From the NCBI RefSeq assembly GCF_054482525.1, contig NZ_CM137006.1: 64,000 nt of DNA; one strand, 5' to 3'. Below are positions 6,521 to 64,000 of this stretch, in pieces. Under the pieces are notes generated by a model that saw only the letters and a list, made by a program, of their open reading frames with translations, was not told where the DNA came from and searched no databases. A program made the translations under genes and the position numbers. How positions within the stretch are numbered: the stretch's first letter is position 1; every line of letters starts with the position of its first letter.

Positions 6521-6524
6521 CGTT

Positions 6525-10185: not shown

Positions 10186-10233
10186 TCGCGCGAGGGACCC
10201 ATTACGTAATTTGCTAAATATGCGCTGAATGCG

Positions 10234-10984: not shown

Positions 10985-11009
10985 TCTGAGAACTCCGTGC
11001 AAAGTATTT

Positions 11010-25016: not shown

Positions 25017-25132
25017 CATGCCGGATACGGCCTATGGTTCGGCACAGACTTGTAGGTCTGATAAGACGCGTCAAGCGTCGCATCAGACATTGTGCGCCAA
25101 CTGCCGGATGCGGCGTGAACGCCTTGTCCGGC
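25017..25132. repeat. REP/BIME repetitive extragenic palindromes between convergent yjjW and yjjV; approximate
   Basis: gccggatacggcc..., taggtctgataagacgcgtcaagcgtcgcatcagaca, gccggatgcggcgtgaacgccttgtccggcctac. Confidence 0.8.
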
Positions 25133-32923: not shown

Positions 32924-33010
32924 GCGAAGGTGGCGGAATTGGTAGACGCGCTAGCTTCAGGTGTTAGTGTCCTTACGGACGTGGGGGTTCAAGTCCCCCC
33001 CCTCGCACCA
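32924..33010 (+). tRNA. leuQ: tRNA-Leu (anticodon CAG), 87 nt incl. CCA
   Basis: gcgaaggtggcggaattggtagacgcgctagcttcaggtgttagtgtccttacggacgtgggggttcaagtcccccccctcgcacca; D-arm, CAG anticodon loop (cttCAGgt), long variable arm, T-arm GGTTCAAGTCC. Confidence 0.93.
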
Positions 33011-33038
33011 AAAACCACGTTGATATTGCTCGCACTGG

Positions 33039-33125
33039 GCGAAGGTGGCGGAATTGGTAGACGCGCTAGCTTCAGGTGTTAGTGTTCTTACGGACGTGGG
33101 GGTTCAAGTCCCCCCCCTCGCACCA
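33039..33125 (+). tRNA. leuP: tRNA-Leu (CAG), 87 nt; differs from flanking copies by one base in the variable arm (gtgtTctt vs gtgtCctt)
   Basis: second tandem copy after a 28-nt spacer. Confidence 0.93.
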
Positions 33126-33159
33126 AACGAGGCGATATCAAAAAAAGTAAGATGACTGT

Positions 33160-33246
33160 GCGAAGGTGGCGGAATTGGTAGACGCGCTAGCTTCAGGTGT
33201 TAGTGTCCTTACGGACGTGGGGGTTCAAGTCCCCCCCCTCGCACCA
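33160..33246 (+). tRNA. leuV: tRNA-Leu (CAG), 87 nt
   Basis: third tandem copy after a 34-nt spacer; identical to first copy. Confidence 0.93.
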
Positions 33247-46012: not shown

Positions 46013-47668
46013 TTAAAACGTTTCCCAGTTCTCCTCGCTATCTGCCATGGCCATTTTACGCGGCGTAGCTGGCGTCACGGTTTTTACCACAGCCGATGTT
46101 TCACGCTGCTGTTGCTGAATCCGGAACACTGCCACAGCTTCGGTCAGGCGACTGGCCTGCTCTTCCAGCGCGGCGGCGGCAGCGGCAGATTCTTCCACCA
46201 GCGCAGCGTTCTGTTGAGTTACCCGGTCCATCTCAGCGACCGCTAAGCCAACCTGATCGATACCACGGCTCTGCTCATCAGAAGCAGAAGCTATTTCGCC
46301 CATAATGTCCGTCACGCGGGTCACAGCACTGACAATCTCCGCCATTGTTTCCCCGGCGCTTTCGACCAGCGTAGAGCCAACATCCACTTTCCCCACCGAG
46401 TCTTCAATCAGGCTTTTAATTTCACGAGCCGCCTGGGCGCTACGCTGGGCCAGATTACGCACTTCTCCCGCAACCACCGCAAAACCGCGCCCTTGCTCAC
46501 CCGCACGCGCAGCCTCAACCGCGGCGTTCAAAGCCAGAATATTGGTCTGGAAGGCAATGCCGTCAATTACGCTGATAATATCGGCGATTTTCTGCGAACT
46601 GGTGGAGATATCGCGCATGGTCTGCACCACGTTATCCACCACTTTGCCGCCGCGTTGCGCCGTTTCAGAAGCACTTAATGCCAGATGGCTGGCCTGGCGC
46701 GCATTCTCGGCGTTCTGTTTCACCGTTGCGGTCAGTTGCTCCATGCTGGCTGCCGTCTCTTCCAGCGAAGCGGCCTGTTGCTCGGTGCGCGAAGAGAGAT
46801 CGTTATTACCGGTGGCGATTTCGCTGGCACCGCTATAGATGGCATTGGCCCCGTTGCGCACATCACCGACGGTACGCATCAGCTCTCCCTGCATATGGCG
46901 CAAACTCTCTGCCAGTTGCCCCATCTCATTAGAGCCATCCACCTCAATCGGTTTCACCAGATCGCCGCCTGCAATATGACGAATGCTGTCAATCAGGCGA
47001 TTCATTGGCGCTACCAACGAGGCTTTAATACCGAACCAGACGGCGAAGATGACCGCCAGTACGACGATCATCACGCCCACCAGAATCCACATCGCCTGGC
47101 TGTAGGAGGCATTGTTATCGCTGACGGCGATATCATAGAGCCGATCGTTTTGCTCCATGTAAGCCACATACTGCTTCTCGAAAGCGTCCTGATATCCCTG
47201 GGTCGGCTGATCAAAGAACTCGTTGATTTTGCCTGCACCTAACAGTTGGATCAGCTCCGCCAGCGCATTGTGATAAATATCGTAATTACGTTTGATCTCT
47301 GACGCTGCGGCGGTGCTCTGACGCGGGTCACGCGGCAACGCTTCGTAATCCGCCCAGTTTTTTTCCGCCTGTTTCAGCGAAATACTGGCACTCTGCATCA
47401 GCTCAGCAACGGTTGAACCGCTACCAATATTATTCTGATCCATCATGTAGCGGATACCCGCGCGGTTGAGGGTGTTACGCGTCTGCAACAACGCAACCCA
47501 GCTGCCATTCAGCGTGGATTGCTGCTGGCGAATGGTTTGTAAAACAGTGAAATTTTCTTTGTCATTCTTTAAGGCATTAAAGAACAGACCGCCTGAAGTC
47601 AGTTGTAAAAGGCCAAAAACGGCCAAAACCAGCAGTAAGCTGGTCACAATTTTGATACGTTTTAACAT
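46013..47668 (-). CDS. tsr: methyl-accepting chemotaxis protein I (serine chemoreceptor)
   Basis: 551 aa [43 protein letters not shown]...; HAMP and MCP signalling domain; C-terminal NWETF. Confidence 0.93.
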
Positions 47669-47786
47669 GGTTTCTCTTTCCTGTGGACCGATGCAAGATT
47701 TTCGGCCTGGAAAGCAAAAACTTTATGAAAAGGTGTAACCCGCCATCCATGGAAAAACCAGGCGCTGGTTATCAGATATTAAAAAG

Positions 47787-48233
47787 TTATTCATTATCGC
47801 CCGGGATGTCTTCTTGTCGGGAATTACCCAGAGCAATAAATTCCTCTAACAGATGGGTTAACTGTTGCATTTTCTCGGCAGTAAACTGAGCTTCAATCTG
47901 CCGATAGGCTTCTTCAATCTGTGTCTGAGCGCGGTTATACAGGGCCTGCCCCTCTTTGGTCAGCGAGATATAGAGCTTCCGCTGATCATTGATCGGCTTT
48001 AATCGCAACACTAAACCGTCGCGTTCCATCCGCGTGAGGATCCCGGTCAGGCTTGGGCGCAAAATGCAGGCGCGATACGCCAGATCGTGAAAATCCATTG
48101 ATGGGCTTTCCGCCAGAATACGCACGATGCGCCACTGTTGCTCTGTCAAATTATGCCGTTTAACGATTGGGCGAAAATAACTCATCGCCGCTTCTCGCGC
48201 CTGGAGCAACGCAATGGTTAGTGAGTCGTGCAT
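47787..48233 (-). CDS. hpaR: MarR-family repressor of the hpa meta-cleavage operon
   Basis: ORF 47787..48314; MHDSLTIALLQAREAAMSYFRPIVKRHNLTEQQWRIVRILAESPSMDFHDLAYRACI from codon 28. Confidence 0.85.
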   Translation of the reverse strand: MHDSLTIALLQAREAAMSYFRPIVKRHNLTEQQWRIVRILAESPSMDFHDLAYRACILRPSLTGILTRMERDGLVLRLKPINDQRKLYISLTKEGQALYNRAQTQIEEAYRQIEAQFTAEKMQQLTHLLEEFIALGNSRQEDIPGDNE

Positions 48234-48455
48234 TATCTTTCCCCTGAAAAATTCAAAATCATTAATATAGAAACAGTTAATCATCACGTTACCGGGACTG
48301 CGCTGCCCCTGCAATTCTTCATTTTATCAAAATTGAGCATGTTTTGTTAACTTACTGATATTTAATATTTTATTATCTTTAAATGTAAATAGTTTGTTAA
48401 TTAGATCACATTTACATCACTTACTTTTGCCAAACTACGCAATCGGGAATAAAAG

Positions 48456-48479
48456 TAATCATTAACATATTAATGATTA
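48456..48479. promoter_or_regulatory. candidate HpaR operator: near-perfect palindrome TAATCATTAACATATTAATGATTA overlapping the hpaG promoter; approximate
   Basis: 24-bp palindrome ~25 bp upstream of hpaG start in the hpaR/hpaG divergent region. Confidence 0.55.
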
Positions 48480-48504
48480 AGATGATCGAATCCGAGGAGT
48501 GGTA

Positions 48505-49794
48505 ATGAAAGGCACTATCTTCGCCGTAGCGTTGAACCATCGCAGCCAACTTGATGCATGGCAGGAAGCGTTCCAGCAATCCCCCTACAAAGCCCCGCCT
48601 AAAACTGCGGTCTGGTTTATTAAACCGCGCAATACGGTGATTGGTTGCGGTGAACCGATTCCCTTTCCACAGGGTGAAAAGGTACTGAGCGGTGCGACTG
48701 TTGCGCTGATTGTGGGAAAAACGGCGACGAAAGTACGTGAAGAAGATGCAGCAGAGTACATCGCCGGATATGCGCTGGCTAACGACGTCAGCCTGCCGGA
48801 AGAGAGCTTTTACCGCCCGGCAATCAAAGCAAAATGTCGTGATGGATTCTGCCCCATTGGCGAAACCGTGGCTCTCAGCAATGTCGATAATCTGACCATC
48901 TATACCGAGATCAACGGGCGTCCTGCCGATCACTGGAACACCGCCGATTTACAACGTAATGCCGCGCAGTTGCTGAGCGCTCTGAGCGAATTTGCCACGC
49001 TGAATCCAGGCGATGCCATTCTGCTCGGCACGCCACAGGCGCGCGTGGAAATACAGCCAGGCGATCGCGTTCGTGTTCTCGCTGAAGGTTTCCCGCCACT
49101 GGAAAATCCGGTAATGGACGAACGTGAAGTGACCACGCGCAAGAGCTTCCCAACGCAGCCACACCCGCACGGCACGCTGTTTGCCCTCGGCCTGAACTAC
49201 GCCGACCACGCCAGCGAACTGGAATTTAAGCCACCGGAAGAACCGCTGGTGTTCCTGAAAGCGCCGAATACCCTCACTGGCGATAACCAGACCTCCGTGC
49301 GCCCGAACAATATTGAATATATGCACTACGAAGCGGAGCTGGTGGTGGTGATTGGCAAGCAGGCGCGTAACGTCAGCGAAGCCGATGCTATGGATTATGT
49401 CGCGGGCTACACCGTGTGTAACGACTACGCCATTCGCGACTATCTGGAAAACTACTACCGCCCTAACCTGCGGGTAAAAAGCCGCGACGGACTGACGCCG
49501 ATGCTTTCAACCATCGTGCCGAAAGAGGCGATCCCGGACCCGCATAATCTGACCCTTCGCACCTTCGTCAACGGCGAGTTACGCCAGAAAGGCACCACCG
49601 CCGATCTGATCTTCAGCGTGCCCTTCCTGATCGCCTACTTAAGCGAATTTATGACCCTGAATCCGGGCGACATGATCGCCACCGGCACACCAAAAGGCTT
49701 ATCTGACGTGGTGCCTGGCGATGAAGTAGTAGTGGAAGTAGAAGGCGTGGGCCGCCTGGTGAACCGAATTGTGAGTGAGGAAACAGCGAAATGA
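48505..49794 (+). CDS. hpaG: bifunctional 5-carboxymethyl-2-oxo-hex-3-ene-1,7-dioate decarboxylase / isomerase (two FAH-like domains)
   Basis: ORF 48499..49794; MKGTIFAVALNHRSQLDAWQEAF...; GAGGAG RBS. Confidence 0.9.
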   Translation: MKGTIFAVALNHRSQLDAWQEAFQQSPYKAPPKTAVWFIKPRNTVIGCGEPIPFPQGEKVLSGATVALIVGKTATKVREEDAAEYIAGYALANDVSLPEESFYRPAIKAKCRDGFCPIGETVALSNVDNLTIYTEINGRPADHWNTADLQRNAAQLLSALSEFATLNPGDAILLGTPQARVEIQPGDRVRVLAEGFPPLENPVMDEREVTTRKSFPTQPHPHGTLFALGLNYADHASELEFKPPEEPLVFLKAPNTLTGDNQTSVRPNNIEYMHYEAELVVVIGKQARNVSEADAMDYVAGYTVCNDYAIRDYLENYYRPNLRVKSRDGLTPMLSTIVPKEAIPDPHNLTLRTFVNGELRQKGTTADLIFSVPFLIAYLSEFMTLNPGDMIATGTPKGLSDVVPGDEVVVEVEGVGRLVNRIVSEETAK

Positions 49795-51257
49795 AAAAAG
49801 TAAATCATTGGATCAACGGCAAAAATGTTGCAGGTAACGACTACTTCCAGACCACCAATCCGGCAACGGGTGAAGTGCTGGCGGATGTGGCCTCTGGCGG
49901 TGAAGCGGAGATCAATCAGGCGGTAGCGGCAGCGAAAGAGGCGTTCCCGAAATGGGCCAATCTGCCGATGAAAGAGCGTGCGCGCCTGATGCGCCGTCTG
50001 GGCGATCTGATCGACCAGAACGTGCCTGAGATCGCCGCGATGGAAACCGCGGACACGGGCCTGCCAATCCATCAGACCAAAAATGTGTTGATCCCACGCG
50101 CTTCTCACAACTTTGAATTTTTCGCGGAAGTCTGCCAGCAGATGAACGGCAAGACCTATCCGGTTGACGACAAGATGCTCAACTACACGCTGGTGCAACC
50201 GGTAGGCGTTTGTGCGCTGGTATCGCCGTGGAACGTGCCGTTTATGACCGCCACATGGAAGGTCGCGCCGTGTCTGGCGCTGGGCAATACCGCGGTGTTG
50301 AAAATGTCGGAACTCTCCCCGCTGACCGCTGACCGCCTGGGTGAGCTGGCGCTGGAAGCCGGTATTCCGGCGGGCGTGCTGAACGTGGTACAGGGCTACG
50401 GCGCAACCGCAGGCGATGCGCTGGTTCGTCATCATGACGTACGTGCCGTGTCGTTCACCGGCGGTACGGCCACCGGGCGCAACATCATGAAAAACGCCGG
50501 GCTGAAAAAATACTCCATGGAACTGGGCGGTAAATCGCCGGTGCTGATTTTTGAAGATGCCGATATTGAACGCGCGCTGGACGCTGCCCTGTTCACCATC
50601 TTCTCGATCAACGGCGAGCGCTGCACCGCCGGTTCGCGCATCTTTATTCAGCAAAGCATCTACCCGGAATTCGTTAAACGCTTTGCCGAACGCGCCAACC
50701 GTCTGCGCGTGGGCGATCCGAACGATCCGAATACCCAGGTTGGGGCGCTTATCAGCCAGCAACACTGGGAAAAAGTCTCCGGCTATATTCGTCTCGGCAT
50801 TGAAGAAGGCGCAACCCTGCTGGCGGGCGGTCCGGATAAACCGTCCGACCTGCCTGCGCACCTGAAAGGCGGCAACTTCCTGCGCCCAACGGTGCTGGCT
50901 GACGTTGATAACCGTATGCGCGTCGCCCAGGAAGAGATTTTCGGGCCGGTCGCCTGTCTGCTGCCGTTTAAAGACGAAGCCGAAGGCTTACGTCTGGCAA
51001 ACGACGTGGAGTACGGCCTCGCGTCGTACATCTGGACACAGGATGTCAGCAAAGTGTTACGCCTGGCGCGTGGCATTGAAGCAGGCATGGTGTTCGTCAA
51101 CACCCAGAACGTGCGTGACCTGCGCCAGCCATTTGGCGGCGTAAAAGCCTCCGGCACCGGGCGTGAAGGCGGTGAGTACAGCTTCGAAGTGTTCGCGGAA
51201 ATGAAGAACGTCTGCATTTCCATGGGCGACCATCCAATTCCGAAATGGGGAGTCTGA
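49791..51257 (+). CDS. hpaE: 5-carboxymethyl-2-hydroxymuconate semialdehyde dehydrogenase
   Basis: 488 aa aldehyde dehydrogenase; ATGA start/stop overlap with hpaG. Confidence 0.9.
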   Translation: MKKVNHWINGKNVAGNDYFQTTNPATGEVLADVASGGEAEINQAVAAAKEAFPKWANLPMKERARLMRRLGDLIDQNVPEIAAMETADTGLPIHQTKNVLIPRASHNFEFFAEVCQQMNGKTYPVDDKMLNYTLVQPVGVCALVSPWNVPFMTATWKVAPCLALGNTAVLKMSELSPLTADRLGELALEAGIPAGVLNVVQGYGATAGDALVRHHDVRAVSFTGGTATGRNIMKNAGLKKYSMELGGKSPVLIFEDADIERALDAALFTIFSINGERCTAGSRIFIQQSIYPEFVKRFAERANRLRVGDPNDPNTQVGALISQQHWEKVSGYIRLGIEEGATLLAGGPDKPSDLPAHLKGGNFLRPTVLADVDNRMRVAQEEIFGPVACLLPFKDEAEGLRLANDVEYGLASYIWTQDVSKVLRLARGIEAGMVFVNTQNVRDLRQPFGGVKASGTGREGGEYSFEVFAEMKNVCISMGDHPIPKWGV

Positions 51258-51258
51258 T

Positions 51259-52110
51259 ATGGGTAAGTTAGCGTTAGCCGCCAAGATCACGCACGTACCG
51301 TCGATGTATCTCTCTGAACTGCCAGGGAAAAACCACGGTTGCCGCCAGGGTGCGATTGACGGGCATAAAGAGATCAGCAAGCGTTGCCGGGAAATGGGCG
51401 TCGATACCATTATCGTTTTCGATACCCACTGGCTGGTCAACAGTGCTTATCACATCAACTGTGCAGACCATTTTGAAGGCGTCTACACCAGCAACGAGCT
51501 GCCGCATTTTATCCGCGATATGACCTACAACTACGAGGGCAACCCGGAGTTGGGGCAGCTTATTGCCGATGAAGCCTTAAAACTCGGCGTGCGGGCAAAA
51601 GCGCACAATATTCCCAGCCTGAAACTGGAATACGGCACGCTGGTGCCAATGCGCTACATGAATGAAGACAAGCACTTCAAAGTGGTCTCCATTTCGGCTT
51701 TCTGCACGGTTCACGATTTTGCCGACAGCCGCAAGCTTGGCGAAGCGATTGTGAAAGCGATCGAACAGTACGACGGCACCGTGGCGGTCCTTGCCAGCGG
51801 TTCGTTATCGCACCGCTTTATTGACGATCAGCGTGCGGAAGAAGGGATGAACAGCTACACCCGCGAGTTCGACCGCCAGATGGACGAGCGCGTGGTGAAG
51901 CTGTGGCGCGAAGGCCAGTTCAAAGAGTTCTGCAATATGCTGCCGGAGTACGCCGACTACTGCTACGGCGAAGGCAATATGCACGACACGGTGATGCTGC
52001 TGGGGATGCTCGGCTGGGATAAATACGACGGCAAGGTGGAGTTTATTACCGAGCTGTTCCCAAGCTCTGGCACTGGTCAGGTTAACGCTGTTTTCCCGCT
52101 TCCCGCGTAA
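51259..52110 (+). CDS. hpaD: 3,4-dihydroxyphenylacetate (homoprotocatechuate) 2,3-dioxygenase
   Basis: 283 aa ORF MGKLALAAKITHVPSMYLSELPGKNHGCRQGAIDGHKE... Confidence 0.9.
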   Translation: MGKLALAAKITHVPSMYLSELPGKNHGCRQGAIDGHKEISKRCREMGVDTIIVFDTHWLVNSAYHINCADHFEGVYTSNELPHFIRDMTYNYEGNPELGQLIADEALKLGVRAKAHNIPSLKLEYGTLVPMRYMNEDKHFKVVSISAFCTVHDFADSRKLGEAIVKAIEQYDGTVAVLASGSLSHRFIDDQRAEEGMNSYTREFDRQMDERVVKLWREGQFKEFCNMLPEYADYCYGEGNMHDTVMLLGMLGWDKYDGKVEFITELFPSSGTGQVNAVFPLPA

Positions 52111-52119
52111 GGAACCACC

Positions 52120-52500
52120 ATGCCGCACTTTATCGTGGAATGTACTGAAAATATTCGTCAAGAAGCCCGCTTACCTGAGCTGTTTGCCAGTGTTAACACC
52201 GCACTGGCGGCGACGGGGATTTTTCCGCTTGGGGGAATACGTAGCCGGGCGCACTGGATCGATACCTGGCAAATGGCCGATGGCAAGCACGATTACGCCT
52301 TTGTGCATATGACGCTAAAAATCGGCAGCGGGCGCAGTCTGGAAAGCCGTCAGGAAGTAGGTGAAATGCTGTTTGATCTGATTAAAACGCACTTCGCCTC
52401 ACTGATGGAGAGCCGTTACCTGGCGCTTTCATTTGAGATTGCAGAGCTGCACCCGACGTTGAATTTCAAACAGAACAACGTACACGCGTTGTTTAAATAA
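52120..52500 (+). CDS. hpaF: 5-carboxymethyl-2-hydroxymuconate delta-isomerase
   Basis: 126 aa [36 protein letters not shown]... Confidence 0.9.
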
Positions 52501-52567
52501 ATTTGCACCAGCTTCCAGGCCGGATGATAAGGCGCAGCCGCATCCGGCAATGCCACAGGATATCGCC

Positions 52568-53371
52568 ATGTTCGATAAACACACCCACACCCTGATCGCC
52601 CAGCGTCTGGATCAGGCAGAAAAACAGCGCGAACAGATCCGCGCGATCTCGCTGGATTACCCGGAGATCACCATCGAAGACGCTTACGCGGTGCAGCGTG
52701 AATGGGTTCGACTGAAAATCGCCGAAGGTCGCACGCTGAAAGGCCACAAAATCGGCCTGACCTCGAAAGCGATGCAGGCCAGCTCACAAATCAGCGAGCC
52801 GGATTACGGTGCCCTGCTGGATGACATGTTCTTCCACGATGGCAGCGATATCCCGACCGATCGCTTTATCGTGCCGCGCATTGAAGTGGAGCTGGCTTTC
52901 GTGCTGGCAAAACCGCTGCGTGGGCCAAACTGCACGCTGTTCGACGTTTACAACGCCACGGACTATGTGATCCCGGCGCTGGAGCTGATCGACGCTCGCT
53001 GCCACAACATCGATCCGGAAACCCAGCGCCCGCGTAAAGTGTTCGACACCATTTCTGATAACGCCGCCAATGCCGGGGTGATCCTCGGTGGTCGTCCGAT
53101 CAAACCTGACGAGCTGGATCTGCGTTGGATCTCCGCCCTCATGTATCGCAATGGCGTGATTGAAGAAACCGGCGTCGCCGCTGGTGTGCTGAATCATCCG
53201 GCAAACGGCGTGGCCTGGCTGGCGAACAAACTCGCACCGTATGACGTACAACTGGAAGCCGGGCAAATCATTCTCGGCGGTTCGTTCACCCGCCCGGTTC
53301 CGGCGCGTAAGGGCGACACCTTCCACGTCGATTACGGCAACATGGGTTCCATTAGCTGCCGCTTTGTTTAA
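52568..53371 (+). CDS. hpaH: 2-oxo-hept-4-ene-1,7-dioate hydratase
   Basis: ORF 52550..53371; [28 protein letters not shown]... from codon 7. Confidence 0.88.
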
Positions 53372-53381
53372 GGAGAGAACG

Positions 53382-54170
53382 ATGGAAAACAGTTTTAAAG
53401 CGGCGCTGAAAGCAGGCCGCCCGCAGATCGGATTATGGCTGGGGCTAAGTAGCAGCTACAGCGCAGAGTTACTGGCCGGAGCAGGATTCGACTGGTTATT
53501 GATCGACGGTGAGCACGCGCCGAATAACGTGCAAACCGTGCTCACCCAACTACAGGCGATTGCGCCCTATCCCAGCCAGCCGGTAGTACGTCCGTCGTGG
53601 AACGATCCGGTGCAAATCAAACAACTGCTGGACGTCGGCACACAAACCTTACTGGTGCCGATGGTACAAAACGCCGACGAAGCCCGTGAAGCGGTACGCG
53701 CCACCCGTTATCCCCCCGCCGGTATTCGTGGTGTGGGCAGTGCGCTGGCCCGCGCCTCGCGCTGGAATCGTATTCCTGATTACCTGCAAAAAGCCAACGA
53801 TCAAATGTGCGTGCTGGTGCAGATCGAAACGCGTGAGGCAATGAAGAACCTACCGCAGATTCTGGACGTGGAAGGGGTAGACGGCGTGTTTATCGGCCCG
53901 GCGGATCTGAGCGCCGATATGGGTTATGCCGGTAATCCGCAGCACCCGGAAGTGCAGGCCGCCATTGAACAGGCGATCGTGCAAATCCGTGAAGCGGGCA
54001 AAGCGCCGGGGATCCTGATCGCCAATGAGCAACTGGCAAAACGCTACCTGGAACTGGGCGCGCTATTTGTCGCCGTCGGCGTTGACACCACCCTGCTCGC
54101 CCGCGCCGCCGAAGCGCTGGCAGCACGGTTTGGCGCGCAGGCTACAGCGATTAAGCCCGGCGTGTATTAA
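53382..54170 (+). CDS. hpaI: 4-hydroxy-2-oxo-heptane-1,7-dioate aldolase (HpcH/HpaI family)
   Basis: in-frame part of ORF 53241..54170; [48 protein letters not shown]; GGAGAG RBS. Confidence 0.88.
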
Positions 54171-54250
54171 TGCCGGATGCGCTGCGCTTATCCGGCCTAC
54201 ACTCGCACCAAACCGTAGGCCGGATAAGGCGTTTACGCCGCATCCGCCAT
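54171..54250. repeat. REP/BIME palindromic repeats after hpaI; approximate
   Basis: tgccggatgcgctgcgcttatccggcctac...gtaggccggataaggcgtttacgccgcatccg. Confidence 0.8.
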
Positions 54251-54293
54251 AAACCTTGTCGTACCCTACAAAAATCCCATTAGAGGAAGAAAA

Positions 54294-55670
54294 ATGAGCG
54301 ACACCTCACCTGCCATACCGGAAAGTATCGATCCGGCAAATCAGCATAAAACGCTGACTGCCGGACAACAGGCGGTTATTAAGAAGCTGTTTCGCCGCCT
54401 GATCGTCTTTCTGTTCGTGCTGTTTATCTTCTCGTTCCTTGATCGCATCAACATCGGCTTTGCCGGGCTCACGATGGGACGCGACCTCGGTCTGAGCGCC
54501 ACCATGTTTGGCCTCGCCACCACCCTGTTCTACGCCGCTTATGTCATCTTCGGCATTCCCAGCAACATTATGCTGAGTATTGTCGGTGCGCGGCGCTGGA
54601 TCGCCACCATCATGGTGCTTTGGGGCATCGCCTCTACGGTCACCATGTTTGCCACTGGCCCCACCAGCTTGTACGTACTGCGCATACTGGTTGGCATTAC
54701 CGAAGCCGGCTTTCTGCCTGGCATTCTGCTGTATTTAACCTTCTGGTTTCCGGCCTATTTCCGCGCCCGTGCCAACGCCTTGTTTATGGTAGCAATGCCG
54801 GTAACGACAGCGTTGGGATCGATCGTTTCCGGCTACATTTTGTCGCTGGATGGCGTAATGGCATTAAAAGGCTGGCAGTGGCTGTTTTTGCTGGAAGGCT
54901 TCCCGTCGGTATTACTCGGCGTCATGGTGTGGTTCTGGCTTGATGACTCACCGGACAAAGCTAAGTGGCTGACGAAAGAAGACAAAAAATGCCTGCAAGA
55001 GATGATGGATAACGATCGTCTGACGCTGGTTCAGCCAGAGGGAGCCATCAGCCACCACGCCATGCAACAACGCAGCATGTGGCGGGAGATCTTCACTCCG
55101 GTGGTGATGATGTATACCCTGGCGTATTTCTGCCTGACCAACACACTTAGTGCAATCAGCATCTGGACACCGCAGATCCTACAAAGCTTTAATCAGGGTA
55201 GCAGTAATATCACCATCGGCCTGCTGGCCGCCGTACCGCAGATTTGTACCATTCTCGGGATGATCTACTGGAGCCGTCACTCAGATCGCCGCCAGGAACG
55301 AAGGCATCACACCGCCCTTCCTTATTTGTTCGCTGCCGCTGGTTGGTTACTGGCTTCGGCAACTGATCACAACATGATCCAGATGCTGGGGATCATTATG
55401 GCTTCGACCGGATCATTCAGCGCAATGGCGATTTTCTGGACAACACCGGATCAGTCCATCAGCCTGCGGGCACGAGCGATCGGTATTGCGGTGATCAACG
55501 CCACTGGCAACATTGGTTCAGCATTAAGTCCGTTTATGATCGGCTGGTTGAAAGATCTGACCGGCAGCTTTAACAGTGGATTGTGGTTTGTTGCCGCGCT
55601 GCTGGTGATTGGTGCGGGGATTATCTGGGCGATTCCAATGCAGTCCTCCCGTCCGCGAGCGACCCCGTAA
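54294..55670 (+). CDS. hpaX: MFS 4-hydroxyphenylacetate permease
   Basis: 458 aa 12-TM MFS ORF. Confidence 0.88.
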   Translation: MSDTSPAIPESIDPANQHKTLTAGQQAVIKKLFRRLIVFLFVLFIFSFLDRINIGFAGLTMGRDLGLSATMFGLATTLFYAAYVIFGIPSNIMLSIVGARRWIATIMVLWGIASTVTMFATGPTSLYVLRILVGITEAGFLPGILLYLTFWFPAYFRARANALFMVAMPVTTALGSIVSGYILSLDGVMALKGWQWLFLLEGFPSVLLGVMVWFWLDDSPDKAKWLTKEDKKCLQEMMDNDRLTLVQPEGAISHHAMQQRSMWREIFTPVVMMYTLAYFCLTNTLSAISIWTPQILQSFNQGSSNITIGLLAAVPQICTILGMIYWSRHSDRRQERRHHTALPYLFAAAGWLLASATDHNMIQMLGIIMASTGSFSAMAIFWTTPDQSISLRARAIGIAVINATGNIGSALSPFMIGWLKDLTGSFNSGLWFVAALLVIGAGIIWAIPMQSSRPRATP

Positions 55671-55679
55671 GGAACGACG

Positions 55680-56570
55680 ATGTGTGACCGTCAGATTGCC
55701 AATATTGATATCAGCAAAGAGTACGATGAAAGCCTGGGTACTGACGATGTGCATTATCAGTCGTTCGCCCGCATGGCGGCATTTTTTGGCCGCCATATGC
55801 TGCCACATCGCCACGAACAGTACTTTCAGATGCATTTCCTCAATAGCGGACAGATTGAGCTACAGCTTGACGATCATCGCTACTCGGTGGAAGCGCCCCT
55901 GTTTGTCCTGACGCCACCGTCAGTACCTCATGCGTTTATTACGGAGTCTGACGCCGACGGTCATGTGTTGACGGTACGGGAAGATCTGATCTGGCCCCTG
56001 CTGGAAGTTCTTTATCCGGGCACTCGGGAAACCTTCGGCCTGCCGGGGATTTGCCTGTCACTGGCAGATAAACCCGACGAACTGGCGGCGCTGGAACACT
56101 ATTGGCAACTGATAGAGCGGGAATCGGTAGAACAACTGCCTGGACGGGAACACACCCTGACGCTACTGGCACAGGCAGTGTTCACCCTACTGCTGCGTAA
56201 CGCAAAACTCGACGACCATGCCGCCAGCGGGATGCGCGGAGAATTAAAACTGTTCCAACGTTTTCATATGCTGATTGAAAGCCATTTTCACCAGCACTGG
56301 ACAGTACCGGATTACGCTAACGAACTGCATATCACCGAATCACGACTCACGGACATCTGCCGTCGCTTTGCCAACCGTCCGCCAAAACGGTTGATTTTCG
56401 ACAGGCAGCTGCGAGAAGCCAAACGGCTGCTGCTGTTTTCTGATAACGCCGTGAACAATATTGCCTGGCAACTCGGTTTTAAGGATCCGGCTTATTTTGC
56501 CCGCTTTTTTAATCGCTTAGTCGGTTGCTCGCCCAGTGCTTATCGTGCCAAAAAAGTACCTGTGACGTGA
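55680..56570 (+). CDS. hpaA: AraC/XylS-family activator of hpaBC
   Basis: 296 aa ORF; cupin-like N-terminal domain and C-terminal AraC HTH (...AYFARFFNRLVGCSPSAYR). Confidence 0.88.
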   Translation: MCDRQIANIDISKEYDESLGTDDVHYQSFARMAAFFGRHMLPHRHEQYFQMHFLNSGQIELQLDDHRYSVEAPLFVLTPPSVPHAFITESDADGHVLTVREDLIWPLLEVLYPGTRETFGLPGICLSLADKPDELAALEHYWQLIERESVEQLPGREHTLTLLAQAVFTLLLRNAKLDDHAASGMRGELKLFQRFHMLIESHFHQHWTVPDYANELHITESRLTDICRRFANRPPKRLIFDRQLREAKRLLLFSDNAVNNIAWQLGFKDPAYFARFFNRLVGCSPSAYRAKKVPVT

Positions 56571-56820
56571 AAATCCCTTAGCCTTAACGGGAAACCAGGC
56601 ACCACCTGCTATTCCCCTTTCTCCGCCTGGAGCAAGGGGATTTAGTAACGTTAAAAATCGTTAAAAGCGACCTCGATCACAAAACCGTACCCGACATGAA
56701 AAGTACCAGCCATTGTCCCAAAAGTGTCTTCCCGTAATCGCCCCTGCAAGCTTCAATTGAATAACAAAAACAACACACAAAATTAACAATCGTATTCCGA
56801 TTAATACTGTAGAGGTCGAC

Positions 56821-58383
56821 ATGAAACCAGAAGATTTCCGCGCCAGTACCCAACGTCCGTTCACCGGGGAAGAGTATCTGAAAAGCCTGCAGGATGGTCG
56901 AGAGATCTATATCTATGGCGAGCGAGTGAAAGACGTCACCACTCATCCGGCATTTCGTAATGCGGCAGCGTCTGTTGCCCAACTGTACGACGCGCTACAC
57001 AAACCGGAGATGCAGGACTCTCTGTGTTGGAACACCGACACCGGCAGCGGCGGCTATACCCATAAATTCTTCCGCGTGGCGAAAAGTGCCGACGACCTGC
57101 GCCAGCAACGCGACGCCATCGCTGAGTGGTCACGCCTGAGCTATGGCTGGATGGGCCGTACCCCAGACTACAAAGCTGCTTTCGGTTGCGCACTGGGCGC
57201 GAATCCGGGCTTTTACGGTCAGTTCGAGCAGAACGCCCGTAACTGGTACACCCGTATTCAGGAAACTGGCCTCTACTTTAACCACGCGATTGTTAACCCA
57301 CCGATCGATCGTCATTTGCCGACCGATAAAGTAAAAGACGTTTACATCAAGCTGGAAAAAGAGACTGACGCCGGGATTATCGTCAGCGGTGCGAAAGTGG
57401 TTGCCACCAACTCGGCGCTGACTCACTACAACATGATTGGCTTCGGCTCGGCACAAGTGATGGGCGAAAACCCGGACTTCGCACTGATGTTCGTTGCGCC
57501 AATGGATGCCGATGGCGTGAAATTAATCTCCCGCGCCTCTTATGAGATGGTCGCGGGTGCTACCGGCTCGCCGTACGACTACCCGCTCTCCAGCCGCTTC
57601 GATGAGAACGATGCGATTCTGGTGATGGATAACGTGCTGATCCCATGGGAAAACGTGCTGATCTACCGCGATTTTGATCGCTGCCGTCGCTGGACGATGG
57701 AAGGCGGTTTCGCCCGTATGTATCCGCTGCAAGCCTGTGTGCGCCTGGCAGTGAAATTAGACTTCATTACGGCACTGCTGAAAAAATCACTCGAATGTAC
57801 CGGCACCCTGGAGTTCCGTGGCGTGCAGGCCGATCTCGGTGAAGTGGTGGCGTGGCGCAACACCTTCTGGGCATTGAGTGACTCGATGTGTTCAGAAGCA
57901 ACGCCGTGGGTCAACGGGGCTTATTTACCGGATCATGCCGCACTGCAAACCTATCGCGTACTGGCACCAATGGCCTACGCGAAGATCAAAAACATTATCG
58001 AACGCAACGTTACCAGTGGCCTGATCTATCTCCCTTCCAGTGCCCGTGACCTGAACAATCCGCAGATCGACCAGTATCTGGCGAAGTATGTGCGCGGTTC
58101 GAATGGTATGGATCACGTCCAGCGCATCAAGATCCTCAAACTGATGTGGGATGCCATTGGCAGCGAATTTGGTGGTCGTCACGAACTGTATGAAATCAAC
58201 TACTCCGGTAGCCAGGATGAGATTCGCCTGCAGTGTCTGCGCCAGGCACAAAGCTCCGGCAATATGGACAAGATGATGGCGATGGTTGATCGCTGCCTGT
58301 CGGAATACGACCAGAACGGCTGGACTGTGCCGCACCTGCACAACAACGACGATATCAACATGCTGGATAAGCTGCTGAAATAA
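56821..58383 (+). CDS. hpaB: 4-hydroxyphenylacetate 3-monooxygenase, oxygenase component
   Basis: 520 aa ORF MKPEDFRASTQRPFTGEEYLKSLQDGREIYIYGERVKDVTTHPAFRNAA... Confidence 0.92.
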   Translation: MKPEDFRASTQRPFTGEEYLKSLQDGREIYIYGERVKDVTTHPAFRNAAASVAQLYDALHKPEMQDSLCWNTDTGSGGYTHKFFRVAKSADDLRQQRDAIAEWSRLSYGWMGRTPDYKAAFGCALGANPGFYGQFEQNARNWYTRIQETGLYFNHAIVNPPIDRHLPTDKVKDVYIKLEKETDAGIIVSGAKVVATNSALTHYNMIGFGSAQVMGENPDFALMFVAPMDADGVKLISRASYEMVAGATGSPYDYPLSSRFDENDAILVMDNVLIPWENVLIYRDFDRCRRWTMEGGFARMYPLQACVRLAVKLDFITALLKKSLECTGTLEFRGVQADLGEVVAWRNTFWALSDSMCSEATPWVNGAYLPDHAALQTYRVLAPMAYAKIKNIIERNVTSGLIYLPSSARDLNNPQIDQYLAKYVRGSNGMDHVQRIKILKLMWDAIGSEFGGRHELYEINYSGSQDEIRLQCLRQAQSSGNMDKMMAMVDRCLSEYDQNGWTVPHLHNNDDINMLDKLLK

Positions 58384-58400
58384 CGCAGCAGGAGGTTAAG

Positions 58401-58913
58401 ATGCAATTAGATGAACAACGCCTGCGCTTTCGTGACGCAATGGCCAGCCTGTCGGCAGCGGTAAATATTATCACCACCGAGGGCAACGCCGGGCAATGCG
58501 GGATTACGGCAACGGCTGTCTGCTCGGTCACGGATACACCACCGTCGCTGATGGTGTGCATTAACGCCAACAGTGCGATGAACCCGGTTTTTCAGGGCAA
58601 CGGTAAGTTGTGCGTCAACGTCCTCAACCATGAGCAGGAACTGATGGCACGCCACTTCGCGGGCATGACAGGCATGGCGATGGAAGAGCGTTTTAGCCTC
58701 TCATGCTGGCAAAAAGGTCCGCTGGCGCAGCCGGTGCTAAAAGGTTCGCTGGCCAGTCTTGAAGGTGAGATCCGCGATGTGCAGGCAATTGGCACACATC
58801 TGGTGTATCTGGTGGAGATTAAAAACATCATCCTCAGTGCAGAAGGTCACGGACTTATCTACTTTAAACGCCGTTTCCATCCGGTGATGCTGGAAATGGA
58901 AGCTGCGATTTAA
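58401..58913 (+). CDS. hpaC: 4-hydroxyphenylacetate 3-monooxygenase, flavin reductase component
   Basis: 170 aa ORF MQLDEQRLRFRDAMASLSAAVNIITTEGNAGQCGITATAVCSVTDTPPSLMVCIN...; GGAGG RBS. Confidence 0.9.
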   Translation: MQLDEQRLRFRDAMASLSAAVNIITTEGNAGQCGITATAVCSVTDTPPSLMVCINANSAMNPVFQGNGKLCVNVLNHEQELMARHFAGMTGMAMEERFSLSCWQKGPLAQPVLKGSLASLEGEIRDVQAIGTHLVYLVEIKNIILSAEGHGLIYFKRRFHPVMLEMEAAI

Positions 58914-58920
58914 GCTCCAG

Positions 58921-58952
58921 CCCCTTCACGTATTCGTCGAAGGGGCATTTTT
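58921..58952 (+). terminator. rho-independent terminator of hpaBC (CCCCTTC-loop-GAAGGGG then T-tract); approximate
   Basis: ccccttcacgtattcgtcgaaggggcattttta directly after hpaC stop. Confidence 0.75.
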
Positions 58953-58954
58953 AT

Positions 58955-58970
58955 TGTGATCTCAATCACA
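58955..58970. promoter_or_regulatory. CRP (cAMP receptor protein) consensus site TGTGA-N6-TCACA upstream of btsT; approximate
   Basis: tgtgatctcaatcaca, perfect match to both CRP half-sites. Confidence 0.7.
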
Positions 58971-58998
58971 TATCCACCCGATGAATAATTCTTGCCCA

Positions 58999-59026
58999 AC
59001 CGCTCACCGCCATTCCTGACCGCTTA
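58999..59026. promoter_or_regulatory. direct repeat ACCGCTCA-N12-ACCGCTTA, candidate LytTR response-regulator (BtsR/YehT) binding site in the btsT promoter; approximate
   Basis: two 8-bp direct repeats at the spacing expected for LytTR regulators. Confidence 0.6.
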
Positions 59027-59183
59027 CATCCCTAAAATAACCACTCAGTTATTTACCTTACTTTATGCGCGCGTAACTCTGGCAACATCACTGCAGGATA
59101 GCGGTCAATTTACCTCCTCAAACGCAACGCAAACCTAGAACGGCTTCGGCCTATGATTAACAAATTACTCTATGGATTTTGGT

Positions 59184-59288
59184 TTGCAGGAAGGCAGCAA
59201 GTGAGTGAATCCCCGGGAGCTTACAACAGTAAGTGACAGGGGTGAACGAACGCAGCTGCCGCACCTGTAAGCCAAAAGACGACGAGTA
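59184..59288 (+). repeat. copy B of the ~100-nt structured repeat, immediately upstream of btsT start codon
   Basis: ttgcaggaaggcagcaagtgagtgaatccccgggagcttacaacagtaagtgacaggggtgaacgaacg...gacgagta; same orientation and ~85% identity to copy A (4496..4600). Confidence 0.6.
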
Positions 59289-59305
59289 AAATGCCAGGTT
59301 TTACT

Positions 59306-62753: not shown

Positions 62754-64000
62754 TTATCTCTGAACGTGCAACACTTCCTGCGACTCCTTATGCGCCTCCA
62801 CATCCTGCTTCGTTAACCAGAGCGACTTACGACCAAAATTTTCGTACATTTTCAGCTGATCTTCATAGTGCTTATCAACTGTTCCATCGGGAGCAATAAA
62901 TCCACTCTGACCGGGTGCGACCACATCCCAGGCAAGCACCGGGCGATCGCTCGTCATTGGTGAGAAGACAATCATATCGTTTTCTGTTCCACGGTTTTGA
63001 TACTCCGCCTGATGACGCGCTTCTTCCGCTGCGGCCTGCGGTACGCCAAAGAAATTATTTGCCCGGAACGTTAAGGCCATTGCAGGTGTTTTCCAGTTAC
63101 TCACATTATTGCCATAGCGTTTGGAAAGAGTCTCCCAGGTATCTTCCAGCGCAGCCAACACAACCTCCTGCTGTGATTTCCCGGCAAACAGATCAACCGC
63201 CTGTGGGATTGGTGATTTGTCTCCCTGCACCGCCTCATACAAAATTTTTGCTCCAACACTTATATTCAGCGAACCAGTTGGACCGTCCTGGGTTGTTTCG
63301 TAGCCACTGGCGCTGTACCACTTATCAAATGGCATAGGTACAACAGCCACTACGGTACGCTTCAACATACTGGTCAGCCAAACGTTTAGGATGGCAGAGC
63401 CTGGCTGTTGCCAGGTTTTACCATCATCATTGAGCAGATTGATGCCATCCCAACGTGTTAATGTTTCTACCAACTGACGACGCGGATCGCTCTGTGTCAA
63501 ACCAGATGTCGCTGCTTGCAGAGTAGGTAAAAAAAGCCTCAGGTTAAGATCCTGACGACTGGTTTGGCGAATAACATCCCATGCCTGATCAGCAGTTAAG
63601 CGTGGCTTTTGCTCAAGCAGTCGGTCGATCTCCGTAACGCGATCTGCACCACCCCACAAAAAGGCAAACAGATCCGAAGCGGGATAATCTTTTTGGGGGG
63701 AATTGTTCCAGTTAGCAATATATCCCGACTGGGGGTTATACACCTTAGGGTTCATTTCAAAAGGCAATAGCCCTTTCCAGTCCCATTTTCCCGTACCAGG
63801 AACGGGTAATCGCGGATCATGGCCTGATTGACGATCTGGATAAGCACCAGTATGAACATAACCAATATTGCCGTTTACATCAGCATAGTACCAGTTGATG
63901 GTCAGTGCTTGTTTCGCTGCCTGCTGTGTCCACTCCTGCCAATTTTTGGCCTTCATCTGATGAGTCCAGGCCAGCAAAGACGCCACCTCTTTACCATCCC
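62754..64000 (-). CDS. pac: penicillin G acylase (Ntn-hydrolase), 3' portion; gene continues beyond window end
   Basis: ORF 62754..63986 with no start in window; C-terminus ...[30 protein letters not shown] and internal ...[56 protein letters not shown] match E. coli penicillin amidase beta subunit. Confidence 0.85.

What the first reader, a model, noticed from the sequence alone, without database searches (positions are those of the whole stretch)
47787..58913. Complete 11-gene 4-hydroxyphenylacetate catabolic island between tsr and btsT
All hpa genes are present and look intact, with tight spacing (hpaG/hpaE share an ATGA overlap), REP elements after hpaI, and palindromic candidate HpaR operators in the hpaR/hpaG divergent region. 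This cluster is known from E. coli B, C and W and is absent from K-12. Together with pac downstream it places the sequence in an E. coli W-like lineage. It is known biology, so interest is moderate.
Basis: established knowledge. Interest (0 to 1): 0.3.

Follow-up and report, generated by a model that had tools for sequence, protein, structure and literature searches.

The report
Intact E. coli 4-hydroxyphenylacetate catabolic cluster

Summary
Window 47787-58913 carries hpaR | hpaGEDFHI | hpaXA | hpaBC between tsr and btsT. All 11 ORFs are full length with no frameshifts. Each matches its own NCBIfam equivalog model end to end.

The sequence details also hold: the hpaG/hpaE ATGA overlap, two inverted REP units after hpaI, and a perfect palindrome (TAATCATTAA-N4-TTAATGATTA) before hpaG.

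- The window is E. coli PCN033 (O11, phylogroup D), with 1 mismatch in 25 kb. That genome paper already lists this cluster.
- The window is equally distant (about 98.4%) from W, B and K-12.
- hpa occurs in about 38% and pac in about 20% of 5,426 complete E. coli genomes. E. coli B has hpa without pac.
- The same tsr-hpa-btsT order occurs in another Escherichia species, in Citrobacter and in Pseudocitrobacter. Together with normal GC content and no mobility signatures, this points to an ancestral locus lost in K-12, not an acquired island.

One side finding came up. hpaF alone is 80.6% identical to W's hpaF, against 97-99% for the other ten genes. E. coli splits about 50:50 between two hpaF alleles, and the window carries the native Escherichia (B-type) allele.

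Overall this is known biology of low interest.

The parts
46013..47668 (-). tsr (serine chemoreceptor), left flanking core gene
   Evidence: PGAP annotation of the identical PCN033 record; 98.4% identical to K-12
47730..59015 (.). Block that K-12 replaces with 149 bp of unrelated or diverged sequence. The right 65 bp (58950-59015) is a diverged homologue of K-12 sequence that includes the CRP site.
   Evidence: blastn-short of the K-12 tsr-btsT spacer against the window; global alignment gives 52 of 96 columns identical
47787..48233 (-). hpaR, MarR-type repressor of the meta operon
   Evidence: TIGR02337 HpaR equivalog, 201 bits against a cut-off of 121; protein identical to W and B (WP_000543916.1)
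48253..48283 (.). Second candidate HpaR site next to the hpaR start, with half-site ATCATTAA at 48258-48265 and TTAATCAT 11 nt downstream
   Evidence: Half-site count; 100% conserved with W. Assignment as an operator is inferred.
48456..48479 (.). Perfect palindrome TAATCATTAA-CATA-TTAATGATTA, the candidate main HpaR operator, 25 bp upstream of the hpaG ATG
   Evidence: unique in 64 kb; contains the TTAA-N4-TTAA core reported for HpaR sites 'similar to E. coli W' (PMC7180172); identical in W
48505..49794 (+). hpaG, bifunctional OPET decarboxylase / HHDD isomerase
   Evidence: NF011750, 976 bits against a cut-off of 811, positions 1-429 of 429
49791..51257 (+). hpaE, CHMS dehydrogenase; its start overlaps the hpaG stop (ATGA)
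   Evidence: TIGR02299, 739 bits against 638; overlap seen
51259..52110 (+). hpaD, homoprotocatechuate 2,3-dioxygenase
   Evidence: TIGR02298, 549 bits against 316
52120..52500 (+). hpaF, CHM isomerase. This is the B-type / native Escherichia allele, 80.6% nt and 84% aa identical to the W and C allele.
   Evidence: NF011605, 263 bits against 215
52519..52548 (.). Single REP unit in the 67-bp hpaF-hpaH spacer. W and the outgroup Escherichia have two units in 110 bp.
52568..53371 (+). hpaH, 2-oxo-hept-4-ene-1,7-dioate hydratase
   Evidence: TIGR02312, 465 bits against 351
53382..54170 (+). hpaI, 4-hydroxy-2-oxoheptanedioate aldolase
   Evidence: TIGR02311, 434 bits against 369
54172..54249 (.). 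Inverted pair of REP units (BIME-like) between hpaI and hpaX. W has 51 bp more here.
54294..55670 (+). hpaX, MFS 4-hydroxyphenylacetate permease
   Evidence: TIGR02332, 893 bits against 615
55680..56570 (+). hpaA, AraC/XylS-type activator of hpaBC
   Evidence: TIGR02297, 387 bits against 275
56571..56820 (.). hpaA-hpaB regulatory spacer (hpaBC promoter region), with a hairpin at 56613-56640
   Evidence: 245 of 250 nt identical to W; hairpin. Promoter assignment rests on published W work and was not tested here.
56821..58383 (+). hpaB, 4-HPA 3-monooxygenase, oxygenase component
   Evidence: TIGR02310, 1110 bits against 885; protein identical to W
58401..58913 (+). hpaC, flavin:NAD(P)H reductase component
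   Evidence: NF012030, 385 bits against 315
58920..58952 (+). Intrinsic terminator-like hairpin plus T-run after hpaC
   Evidence: -19.1 kcal/mol, z = -6.45
58955..58970 (.). Perfect CRP consensus TGTGA-N6-TCACA upstream of btsT. K-12 has TGTGATATGAATCACA at the equivalent place.
59019..59047 (.). BtsR (YehT) boxes ACCGCTTA and ACCACTCA with a 13-bp spacing; the btsT promoter region is retained intact
   Evidence: identical to the 3' 34 nt of the K-12 'yjiY YehT bs' oligo in PMC4847170
59152..59290 (.). ERIC/IRU-like dispersed repeat in the btsT leader; K-12 has 16 bp here
   Evidence: hairpin of -61.6 kcal/mol, z = -8.1; median 9 copies per genome, with this copy in about 2,060 genomes
59306..61456 (+). 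btsT (yjiY), pyruvate/H+ symporter, right flanking core gene
62754..64000 (-). 3' part of pac (penicillin G acylase), cut off by the window end

Best explanation
Window 47787-58913 is the complete and apparently functional 4-hydroxyphenylacetate (homoprotocatechuate meta-cleavage) catabolic cluster of E. coli strain PCN033.

Pathway, from established work on E. coli W and C:
1. HpaX imports 4-HPA or 3-HPA.
2. HpaA, with the aromatic acid bound, activates hpaBC.
3. HpaBC hydroxylates 4-HPA to 3,4-dihydroxyphenylacetate.
4. That product and the substrates release the MarR-type repressor HpaR from a palindromic operator overlapping the hpaG promoter.
5. HpaD (ring cleavage), HpaE (dehydrogenase), HpaF (isomerase), HpaG (decarboxylase/isomerase), HpaH (hydratase) and HpaI (aldolase) convert the ring to pyruvate plus succinic semialdehyde.

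Shown here: gene content, intactness, family membership, conservation of the regulatory DNA, purifying selection and genomic position. Inferred here: actual expression and growth.

The locus is best read as an ancestral Escherichia locus that has diverged along with the chromosome and has been lost in K-12 and many other lineages. It is not an island gained by a W-like lineage.
For: - The window is identical to PCN033: 100% over 13 kb and 1 mismatch in 25,001 nt.
- All 11 ORFs are intact and have the same lengths as in W.
- All 11 match their equivalog HMMs over the full length and above the curated cut-offs.
- Codon differences from W are 197 synonymous against 31 nonsynonymous.
- The operator palindrome and both promoter-proximal regions are identical to W. 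The motif is unique in the window and fits the published HpaR core TTAA-N4-TTAA (PMC7180172).
- The hpaC terminator is present.
- E. coli B encodes the identical HpaF protein, and B strains are reported to grow on 4-HPA (Cooper and Skinner 1980, as cited in PMC7180172). Growth on 3-HPA tracks hpaB presence in APEC (PMC12444784).
- Evidence for an ancestral locus: the ten hpa genes other than hpaF diverge from W and B by 1.7-1.9%, and flanking core genes by 1.5-1.6%. The hpaC-btsT adjacency, and tsr-hpa where the contig allows, is seen in a divergent Escherichia (L046), Citrobacter sp. 18056 (L019) and Pseudocitrobacter (L022, L024). GC is 54.4% against 50.8% and 53.7% in the flanks. No border repeats of 9 bp or more and no mobility genes were found.
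Against: - No expression or growth data exist for PCN033 itself. The genome paper only predicts the phenotype.
- The primary E. coli W regulation papers (Galan 2001 and 2003, Prieto 1996) were not readable here. Operator and promoter assignments therefore rest on sequence identity to W and on a secondary citation.
- The K-12 'empty site' is not a clean deletion. It has 149 bp of unmatched or diverged sequence and lacks the ERIC copy, so the history of loss is more complex than a single excision.
- About 600 genomes have neither state.
- Outgroup sampling is one genome per species and was limited by the search patterns.
Confidence: 0.9

Rival explanations
1. One reading: a horizontally acquired hpa island which, together with pac, marks an E. 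coli W-like lineage.
For: W has exactly the same gene order, yjiR-yjiS-pac-yjiA-yjiX-btsT-hpaC...hpaR-tsr. K-12 lacks both hpa and pac.
Against: The window is PCN033, phylogroup D. It is equidistant from W, B and K-12 at 98.4-98.5%. hpa is in 38% and pac in 20% of complete genomes, across many serotypes. B has hpa without pac. hpaF is 80.6% identical to W's but 98.7% to B's. Outgroup synteny is conserved and there is no island signature.
Confidence: 0.04
2. The cluster is present but cryptic or non-functional in this strain, for example because the divergent HpaF allele or the REP and ERIC differences impair the pathway or its expression.
For: HpaF differs at 20 of 126 residues from the biochemically and structurally characterised W and C enzyme. 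The REP spacers are shorter than in W. No growth data exist for PCN033.
Against: None of the 20 differences falls on the 37 invariant columns of 76 orthologues. At the five columns that are at least 90% conserved, the window allele carries the consensus residue. Within hpaF, 39 codons differ synonymously and 20 nonsynonymously. The same protein is encoded by E. coli B, a reported 4-HPA utiliser, and the allele is in 1,083 genomes. The regulatory DNA is identical to W.
Confidence: 0.05
3. For the side finding: the window-type hpaF is the imported allele and the W-type is the native Escherichia allele.
For: The W type is the allele of the classical strains W and C. Both alleles are about equally distant (77-84% nt) from other genera.
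Against: The divergent Escherichia genome L046 carries the window type, at 96.1% nt against 79.8% to the W type. The window allele matches the family consensus at conserved columns where the W allele deviates. The W type clusters with Pseudocitrobacter at 93-98%.
Confidence: 0.15

Closest known systems
hpa cluster of E. coli W ATCC 11105/9637 (GenBank Z37980; Prieto et al. 1996; Galan et al. 2001, 2003)
   Same: Same 11 genes, order, orientation, gene lengths and overlaps. Same chromosomal site between tsr and btsT, with pac beyond yjiA. The HpaR, HpaE, HpaH and HpaB proteins are identical. The operator palindrome and promoter-proximal DNA are identical.
   Different: About 1.7% nt divergence overall. 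hpaF is a different allele (80.6% nt, 84% aa). There is one REP unit instead of two after hpaF (67 bp against 110) and 51 bp less REP sequence after hpaI (123 bp against 174). tsr encodes 551 aa here against 554 in W.
hpa cluster of E. coli B (REL606 / BL21 lineage)
   Same: Same cluster and site. The HpaF protein is identical (WP_001119872.1). The 67-bp and 123-bp REP spacers are the same. The ten other hpa genes are 98.1% nt identical.
   Different: B has no pac. It carries the K-12-like mrr-hsdRMS-symE-mcrBC region between yjiA and yjiS. B belongs to a different phylogroup (A, from my own knowledge), whereas PCN033 is D.
hpc genes of E. coli C and the CHMI crystal structure 1OTG
   Same: Same pathway enzymes. 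HpaF aligns over its full length to 1OTG (E = 1e-70), with the N-terminal proline of the tautomerase fold conserved.
   Different: 1OTG is the W-type allele and differs from the window protein at about 20 of 125 positions.
hpa cluster of Yersinia pseudotuberculosis (PMC7180172)
   Same: HpaR-repressed meta operon with TTAA-N4-TTAA operator cores.
   Different: Yersinia has a split hpaG1/G2, no hpaA, and a single operon, hpaG1G2EDFHIXBC.

Membership tests
E. coli hpa (4-HPA / homoprotocatechuate meta-cleavage) cluster | Eleven genes in the order hpaR (divergent), hpaGEDFHI, hpaXA, hpaBC | tested here: met
   ORF list and the annotation of the identical record; same layout as W and B
E. coli hpa (4-HPA / homoprotocatechuate meta-cleavage) cluster | Each product belongs to its specific enzyme, regulator or transporter family at equivalog level | tested here: met
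   All 11 are above the curated NCBIfam equivalog cut-offs over the full length
E. coli hpa (4-HPA / homoprotocatechuate meta-cleavage) cluster | ORFs intact, with no frameshift or premature stop | tested here: met
   0 internal stops, lengths equal to W, 197 synonymous against 31 nonsynonymous codon differences
E. coli hpa (4-HPA / homoprotocatechuate meta-cleavage) cluster | HpaR operator palindrome in the hpaR-hpaG divergent region | tested here: met
   A perfect inverted repeat at 48456-48479 contains TTAA-N4-TTAA. It is unique in 64 kb and identical to W. HpaR binding itself was not tested.
E. coli hpa (4-HPA / homoprotocatechuate meta-cleavage) cluster | Growth on 4-HPA or 3-HPA as sole carbon source | not testable with these tools
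   Only predicted for PCN033 (PMC4578781). Shown for hpaB-positive APEC (PMC12444784).
E. coli W-like lineage | Sequence closer to W than to other E. coli lineages | tested here: not met
   Flanking core genes are 98.39% identical to W, 98.47% to B and 98.39% to K-12. The window is an exact match to PCN033, phylogroup D.
E. coli W-like lineage | hpa plus pac as a diagnostic combination | tested here: not met
   pac is in 1,074 and hpa in 2,039-2,071 of 5,426 genomes of diverse serotypes, including HS, O145, O103 and O8. Local gene order is shared with W but is not diagnostic.
E. coli W-like lineage | W-type hpa haplotype (hpaF allele and REP spacers) | tested here: not met
   hpaF is 80.8% identical to W's and 98.7% to B's. 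The spacers are 67 and 123 bp as in B, against 110 and 174 bp in W.
Horizontally acquired genomic island | Atypical base composition | tested here: not met
   GC is 54.4% against 52.6% for the window and 50.8% and 53.7% for the flanks
Horizontally acquired genomic island | Integrase or transposase, tRNA target, or flanking direct repeats | tested here: not met
   All long ORFs in the block are accounted for by the hpa genes. There are no shared repeats of 9 bp or more at the borders. The only tRNAs are at 32.9-33.2 kb.
Horizontally acquired genomic island | Absent from the same site in outgroup species | tested here: not met
   The hpaC-btsT adjacency, and tsr-hpa where the contig allows, is found in a divergent Escherichia (L046), Citrobacter sp. 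18056 and Pseudocitrobacter
REP / BIME elements | Imperfect palindromic unit of about 35 bp with a conserved core, multicopy, extragenic, often in inverted pairs | tested here: met
   The core occurs 6 times in the window against 0.24 expected. The inverted pair at 54172-54249 folds at -42.2 kcal/mol. Comparison with the canonical consensus is from memory.
ERIC / IRU element (side feature at 59152-59290) | Imperfect palindrome of about 127 bp, dispersed, extragenic and transcribed, present or absent between strains | tested here: met
   A long hairpin with z = -8.1; median 9 copies per genome in 5,425 of 5,426 genomes; absent at this site in K-12. The match to the ERIC consensus (GTGAATCCCC.GGAGCTTACA / AAGTGAC.GGGGTGA.CG) is from my own knowledge, since no reference model was available.

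The most novel reading that the evidence does not exclude
The hpaF gene alone is a gene-precise cassette polymorphism. Two alleles about 19% apart in nucleotide sequence sit on an otherwise about 98% identical operon, at roughly 52:48 frequency among 2,071 hpaF-carrying E. coli genomes and with almost no intermediates.

The window carries the native Escherichia allele. The allele of the classical strains W and C is a replacement from an unsampled enterobacterial donor. That haplotype was also exchanged with Pseudocitrobacter, whose hpaE, hpaD, hpaF and hpaH are 92-98% identical to E. coli's while their flanks are 79-83%.

If the two isomerase alleles differ functionally, or are kept by balancing selection, this would be an undescribed case of single-enzyme allelic replacement inside a catabolic operon.
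Probability: 0.25. Interest if true: 0.35.

Novelty: already known. Interest (0 to 1): 0.12.

Why it matters
The cluster itself adds nothing new. It is a textbook aromatic-acid pathway, widely used in biotechnology (HpaBC hydroxylase), and it is already reported for this strain.

What is useful is the correction. hpa and pac are common, independently varying and phylogroup-structured accessory traits of E. coli. They should not be used to assign a sequence to the W lineage. The locus also looks ancestral and repeatedly lost rather than acquired.

The hpaF dimorphism and the exchange with Pseudocitrobacter are modest population-genetic curiosities. They matter mostly as a reminder that the characterised W and C enzyme is not the allele carried by about half of hpa-positive E. 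coli, including B and BL21.

Tried and rejected
- I tried to read the primary papers: Galan et al. 2003 (NAR; doi and PMC275547), Prieto et al. 1996 (PMC177627) and Diaz et al. 2001 (PMC99040). None is held. The exact published OPR1 and OPR2 coordinates and promoter start sites could therefore not be checked. I used identity to W and the summary in PMC7180172 instead.
- The Rfam scan of the whole window found nothing inside the hpa region, only naRNA4 at 25055-25133 and three tRNAs.
- The generic sigma-70 and terminator scan was uninformative: 7 promoter-like hits against 8.7 expected and 11 terminator-like hits against 13.3. It missed the hpaC terminator because of its 11-nt loop, so I folded that hairpin directly.
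- I looked for direct repeats or mobility signatures at the borders and found none.
- I considered that the right edge of the hpaF divergent tract lay in the REP spacer. I rejected this because L046 has the window-type hpaF with the W-type 110-bp spacer.
- A literature search for hpaF/hpcD allele variation returned only unrelated hits.
- I did not try to find the donor of W-type hpaF with the large protein searches, because those outputs carry no organism names.

Full report

Yes.
- hpaR 47787-48233 on the minus strand
- hpaG 48505-49794
- hpaE 49791-51257
- hpaD 51259-52110
- hpaF 52120-52500
- hpaH 52568-53371
- hpaI 53382-54170
- hpaX 54294-55670
- hpaA 55680-56570
- hpaB 56821-58383
- hpaC 58401-58913

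The last ten are on the plus strand. The cluster lies between tsr (46013-47668, minus) and btsT (59306-61456, plus). All eleven ORFs have proper starts and stops, no internal stops, and the same lengths as in E. coli W. Each exceeds the curated cut-off of its own NCBIfam equivalog model over the full length.

The sequence details also hold:
- **ATGA overlap.** hpaG and hpaE overlap at 49791-49794.
- **REP elements.** Two inverted REP units follow hpaI at 54172-54249. The 14-nt core occurs six times in the window against 0.24 expected, two of them perfect copies here, and the pair folds at -42.2 kcal/mol, z = -5.7. A further single REP unit follows hpaF.
- **Palindrome.** A perfect TAATCATTAA-CATA-TTAATGATTA lies at 48456-48479, 25 bp upstream of the hpaG start. 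It is the only match to this motif in 64 kb.
- **Half-sites.** All three occurrences in the window of ATCATTAA or its complement fall inside the 271-bp hpaR-hpaG spacer, at 48258, 48458 and 48470.
- **pac.** The 3' part of pac is at 62754-64000 on the minus strand and is truncated by the window end.

**2. What is it and how does it work?**

It is the classical 4-hydroxyphenylacetate / homoprotocatechuate meta-cleavage cluster. The pathway below is established knowledge from the E. coli W and C work, summarised in PMC7180172:
1. HpaX imports the acid.
2. HpaA, an AraC-type regulator, activates hpaBC.
3. HpaBC hydroxylates 4-HPA to 3,4-dihydroxyphenylacetate.
4. HpaR, a MarR-type regulator, represses hpaGEDFHI and itself until an inducer binds.
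5. HpaD, E, F, G, H and I convert the ring to pyruvate and succinic semialdehyde.

What is shown here:
- The genes are intact and belong to the right families.
- They are under purifying selection, with 197 synonymous against 31 nonsynonymous codon differences from W.
- The operator candidates and promoter-proximal DNA are 100% identical to W.
- The palindrome contains the TTAA-N4-TTAA core reported for HpaR sites 'similar to E. coli W'.
- A strong terminator hairpin follows hpaC (-19.1 kcal/mol, z = -6.45).

Expression and growth are inferred, not shown. I could not read the primary regulation papers.

**3. Where does the sequence come from?**

The 13-kb region is 100% identical to E. coli PCN033 and to two other strains. 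The next best genome is 98.7% identical. Over window 39000-64000 there is one mismatch to PCN033 in 25,001 nt. PCN033 is a porcine extraintestinal pathogen of serogroup O11 and phylogroup D. Its genome paper already lists this hpa cluster as 'island XXIV' and predicts 3- and 4-HPA degradation (PMC4578781).

**4. The 'W-like lineage' inference fails.**

W does share the local gene order, including pac between yjiS and yjiA. The other evidence goes against the inference:
- Flanking core genes are 98.39% identical to W, 98.47% to B (REL606) and 98.39% to K-12. The ten hpa genes other than hpaF are 98.29% identical to W's and 98.08% to B's. The window is equidistant from all three.
- The 13-kb hpa region is present in 2,039 of 5,426 complete E. 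coli genomes, and hpaF in 2,071.
- pac is present in 1,074 genomes of many serotypes and hosts.
- E. coli B has hpa but no pac. It carries the K-12-like mrr-hsd-mcr region instead.
- Published work shows that hpa presence is structured by phylogroup: hpaB is in 21/21 phylogroup C, 0/31 B2 and 0/19 G APEC isolates, and growth on 3-HPA follows the gene (PMC12444784).

**5. Island or ancestral locus?**

Compared with K-12, homology stops at 47729, 61 bp upstream of the tsr start, and resumes at 59016. K-12 has 149 bp in place of window 47730-59015. The last 65 bp or so of the window's block (58950-59015) is a diverged homologue of K-12 sequence. It keeps a perfect CRP consensus at 58955-58970.

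The breakpoint lies just upstream of the two BtsR (YehT) boxes at 59019 and 59040. These boxes are identical to the K-12 binding-site oligo in PMC4847170. The btsT control region is therefore intact.

Several lines argue against recent acquisition:
- GC content is 54.4% against 50.8% and 53.7% in the flanks.
- There are no mobility genes and no border repeats of 9 bp or more.
- The cluster has diverged from W and B as much as the flanking core genes have.
- The hpaC-btsT adjacency, and tsr-hpaR where the contig allows, is found in three outgroups: a divergent Escherichia genome (L046, about 91% identical overall), Citrobacter sp. 18056 (L019) and Pseudocitrobacter (L022, L024).

The most economical reading is an ancestral locus lost in K-12 and other lineages. 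The K-12-type empty site is in 2,755 genomes. About 600 genomes have other states. One has a small unrelated ORF in the site, and another has the cluster truncated at the REP after hpaF.

**6. Side finding: hpaF.**

hpaF is only 80.6% nt and 84% aa identical to W's hpaF, while the other ten genes are 97.0-99.2% identical. The divergent tract starts at 52114, four bases after the hpaD stop, and ends at about the hpaF stop.

Among the 2,071 genomes with hpaF, 1,083 carry the window type (95% identity or more), 987 carry the approximately 80.8% type, and one is intermediate.

The evidence on the two alleles:
- The solved CHMI structure 1OTG is of the W type. Its origin in E. coli C is from my own knowledge.
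- E. coli B encodes exactly the window's HpaF protein.
- The divergent Escherichia L046 has the window type, at 96.1% nt against 79.8% to the W type.
- Pseudocitrobacter carries the W type at 93-98% identity. Its hpaE, hpaD and hpaH are 92-97% identical to E. coli's, while tsr, hpaR, hpaX, hpaA and hpaC are only 79-83%.
- None of the 20 amino-acid differences touches an invariant column of 76 orthologues. At five highly conserved columns the window allele carries the consensus residue.

So the window carries the native allele. The W and C allele is a gene-precise replacement from an unsampled donor, and a W-type meta-operon core has been exchanged with Pseudocitrobacter. I found no description of this in the searchable literature, but that search was shallow.

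**7. Other side features.**

A 139-bp ERIC/IRU-like element sits in the btsT leader at 59152-59290, where K-12 has 16 bp. It forms a long hairpin (z = -8.1) and is dispersed at a median of 9 copies per genome. The copy at this site occurs in about 2,060 genomes, about the same number as carry hpa. It therefore belongs to the same haplotype block as hpa.

The REP arrays differ from W by whole units: 67 bp against 110 after hpaF, and 123 against 174 after hpaI.

**8. Verdict.**

The identification as the known hpa cluster is correct, but the lineage inference and the 'island' framing are not supported. The cluster is already known, and is already published for this very strain, so interest is low. 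The hpaF dimorphism is the only mildly novel element.

Noticed in passing
window 52114-52500 (hpaF): Gene-precise allelic dimorphism. hpaF is 80.6% nt identical to W's hpaF against 97-99% for the neighbouring genes. Of 2,071 E. coli genomes with hpaF, 1,083 carry the window type, 987 the W type and 1 is intermediate. The window type is the allele of E. coli B and of a divergent Escherichia species. The W type is the allele of the solved CHMI structure 1OTG.
   Followed up: yes
L022, L024, L025 (Pseudocitrobacter), roughly locus positions 5200-11800: The Pseudocitrobacter hpaG-hpaI core is 86-97% nt identical to E. coli's, and its hpaF is 93-98% identical to the W type. The flanking tsr, hpaR, hpaX, hpaA and hpaC are only 79-83% identical. 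This implies an inter-genus exchange of the meta-operon core. An extra 3.4 kb or so lies between tsr and hpaR there.
   Followed up: partly
window 59152-59290: An ERIC/IRU-like 139-bp hairpin element is inserted in the btsT leader, between the BtsR and CRP sites and the btsT start codon. It is absent at this site in K-12. The copy at this site is in about 2,060 genomes, close to the number of hpa-positive genomes. Any effect on btsT expression is unknown.
   Followed up: partly
window 47730-47786 and 58950-59015, against K-12 NC_000913 4591280-4591656: The K-12 'empty site' is not a clean deletion. It has 149 bp with no match or only about 54% identity to the window, although the flanks are 98% identical. 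The breakpoint abuts the BtsR boxes. About 600 of 5,426 genomes have neither the hpa state nor the K-12 state.
   Followed up: partly
window 62754-64000 and beyond (L001 23755-26295): Here and in W, pac alone occupies the yjiA-yjiS interval. In K-12 and B that interval holds the roughly 16-kb mrr-hsdRMS-symE-mcrBC-yjiV-yjiT 'immigration control' region. The window's pac is about 1.5% diverged from nearly all of the 1,074 other copies.
   Followed up: partly
L084 (E. coli 47-1826), locus positions 13982-14100: A strain whose hpa cluster is truncated immediately after hpaF, at the REP spacer, and joined to iraD. This is a large deletion with a REP-adjacent endpoint.
   Followed up: no
L085 (E. 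coli strain 108), locus positions 2879-3421: Some hpa-negative strains carry a 543-nt hypothetical ORF inserted in the tsr-btsT spacer.
   Followed up: no
window 52501-52567 and 54171-54293: The REP arrays differ from W by whole units: 67 bp against 110, and 123 bp against 174. The 51-bp difference after hpaI is flanked by the repeated sequence GGATAAGGCGT, which suggests REP-REP recombination.
   Followed up: partly
window 25055-25133 and 32924-33243: There is an Rfam naRNA4 (REP-derived nucleoid-associated RNA) match on the minus strand, and three tandem tRNA genes (tRNA-Leu in the W annotation) upstream of the region.
   Followed up: no
window 46013-47668: tsr encodes 551 aa here, as in K-12 and B, but 554 aa in W and some other strains.
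   Followed up: no
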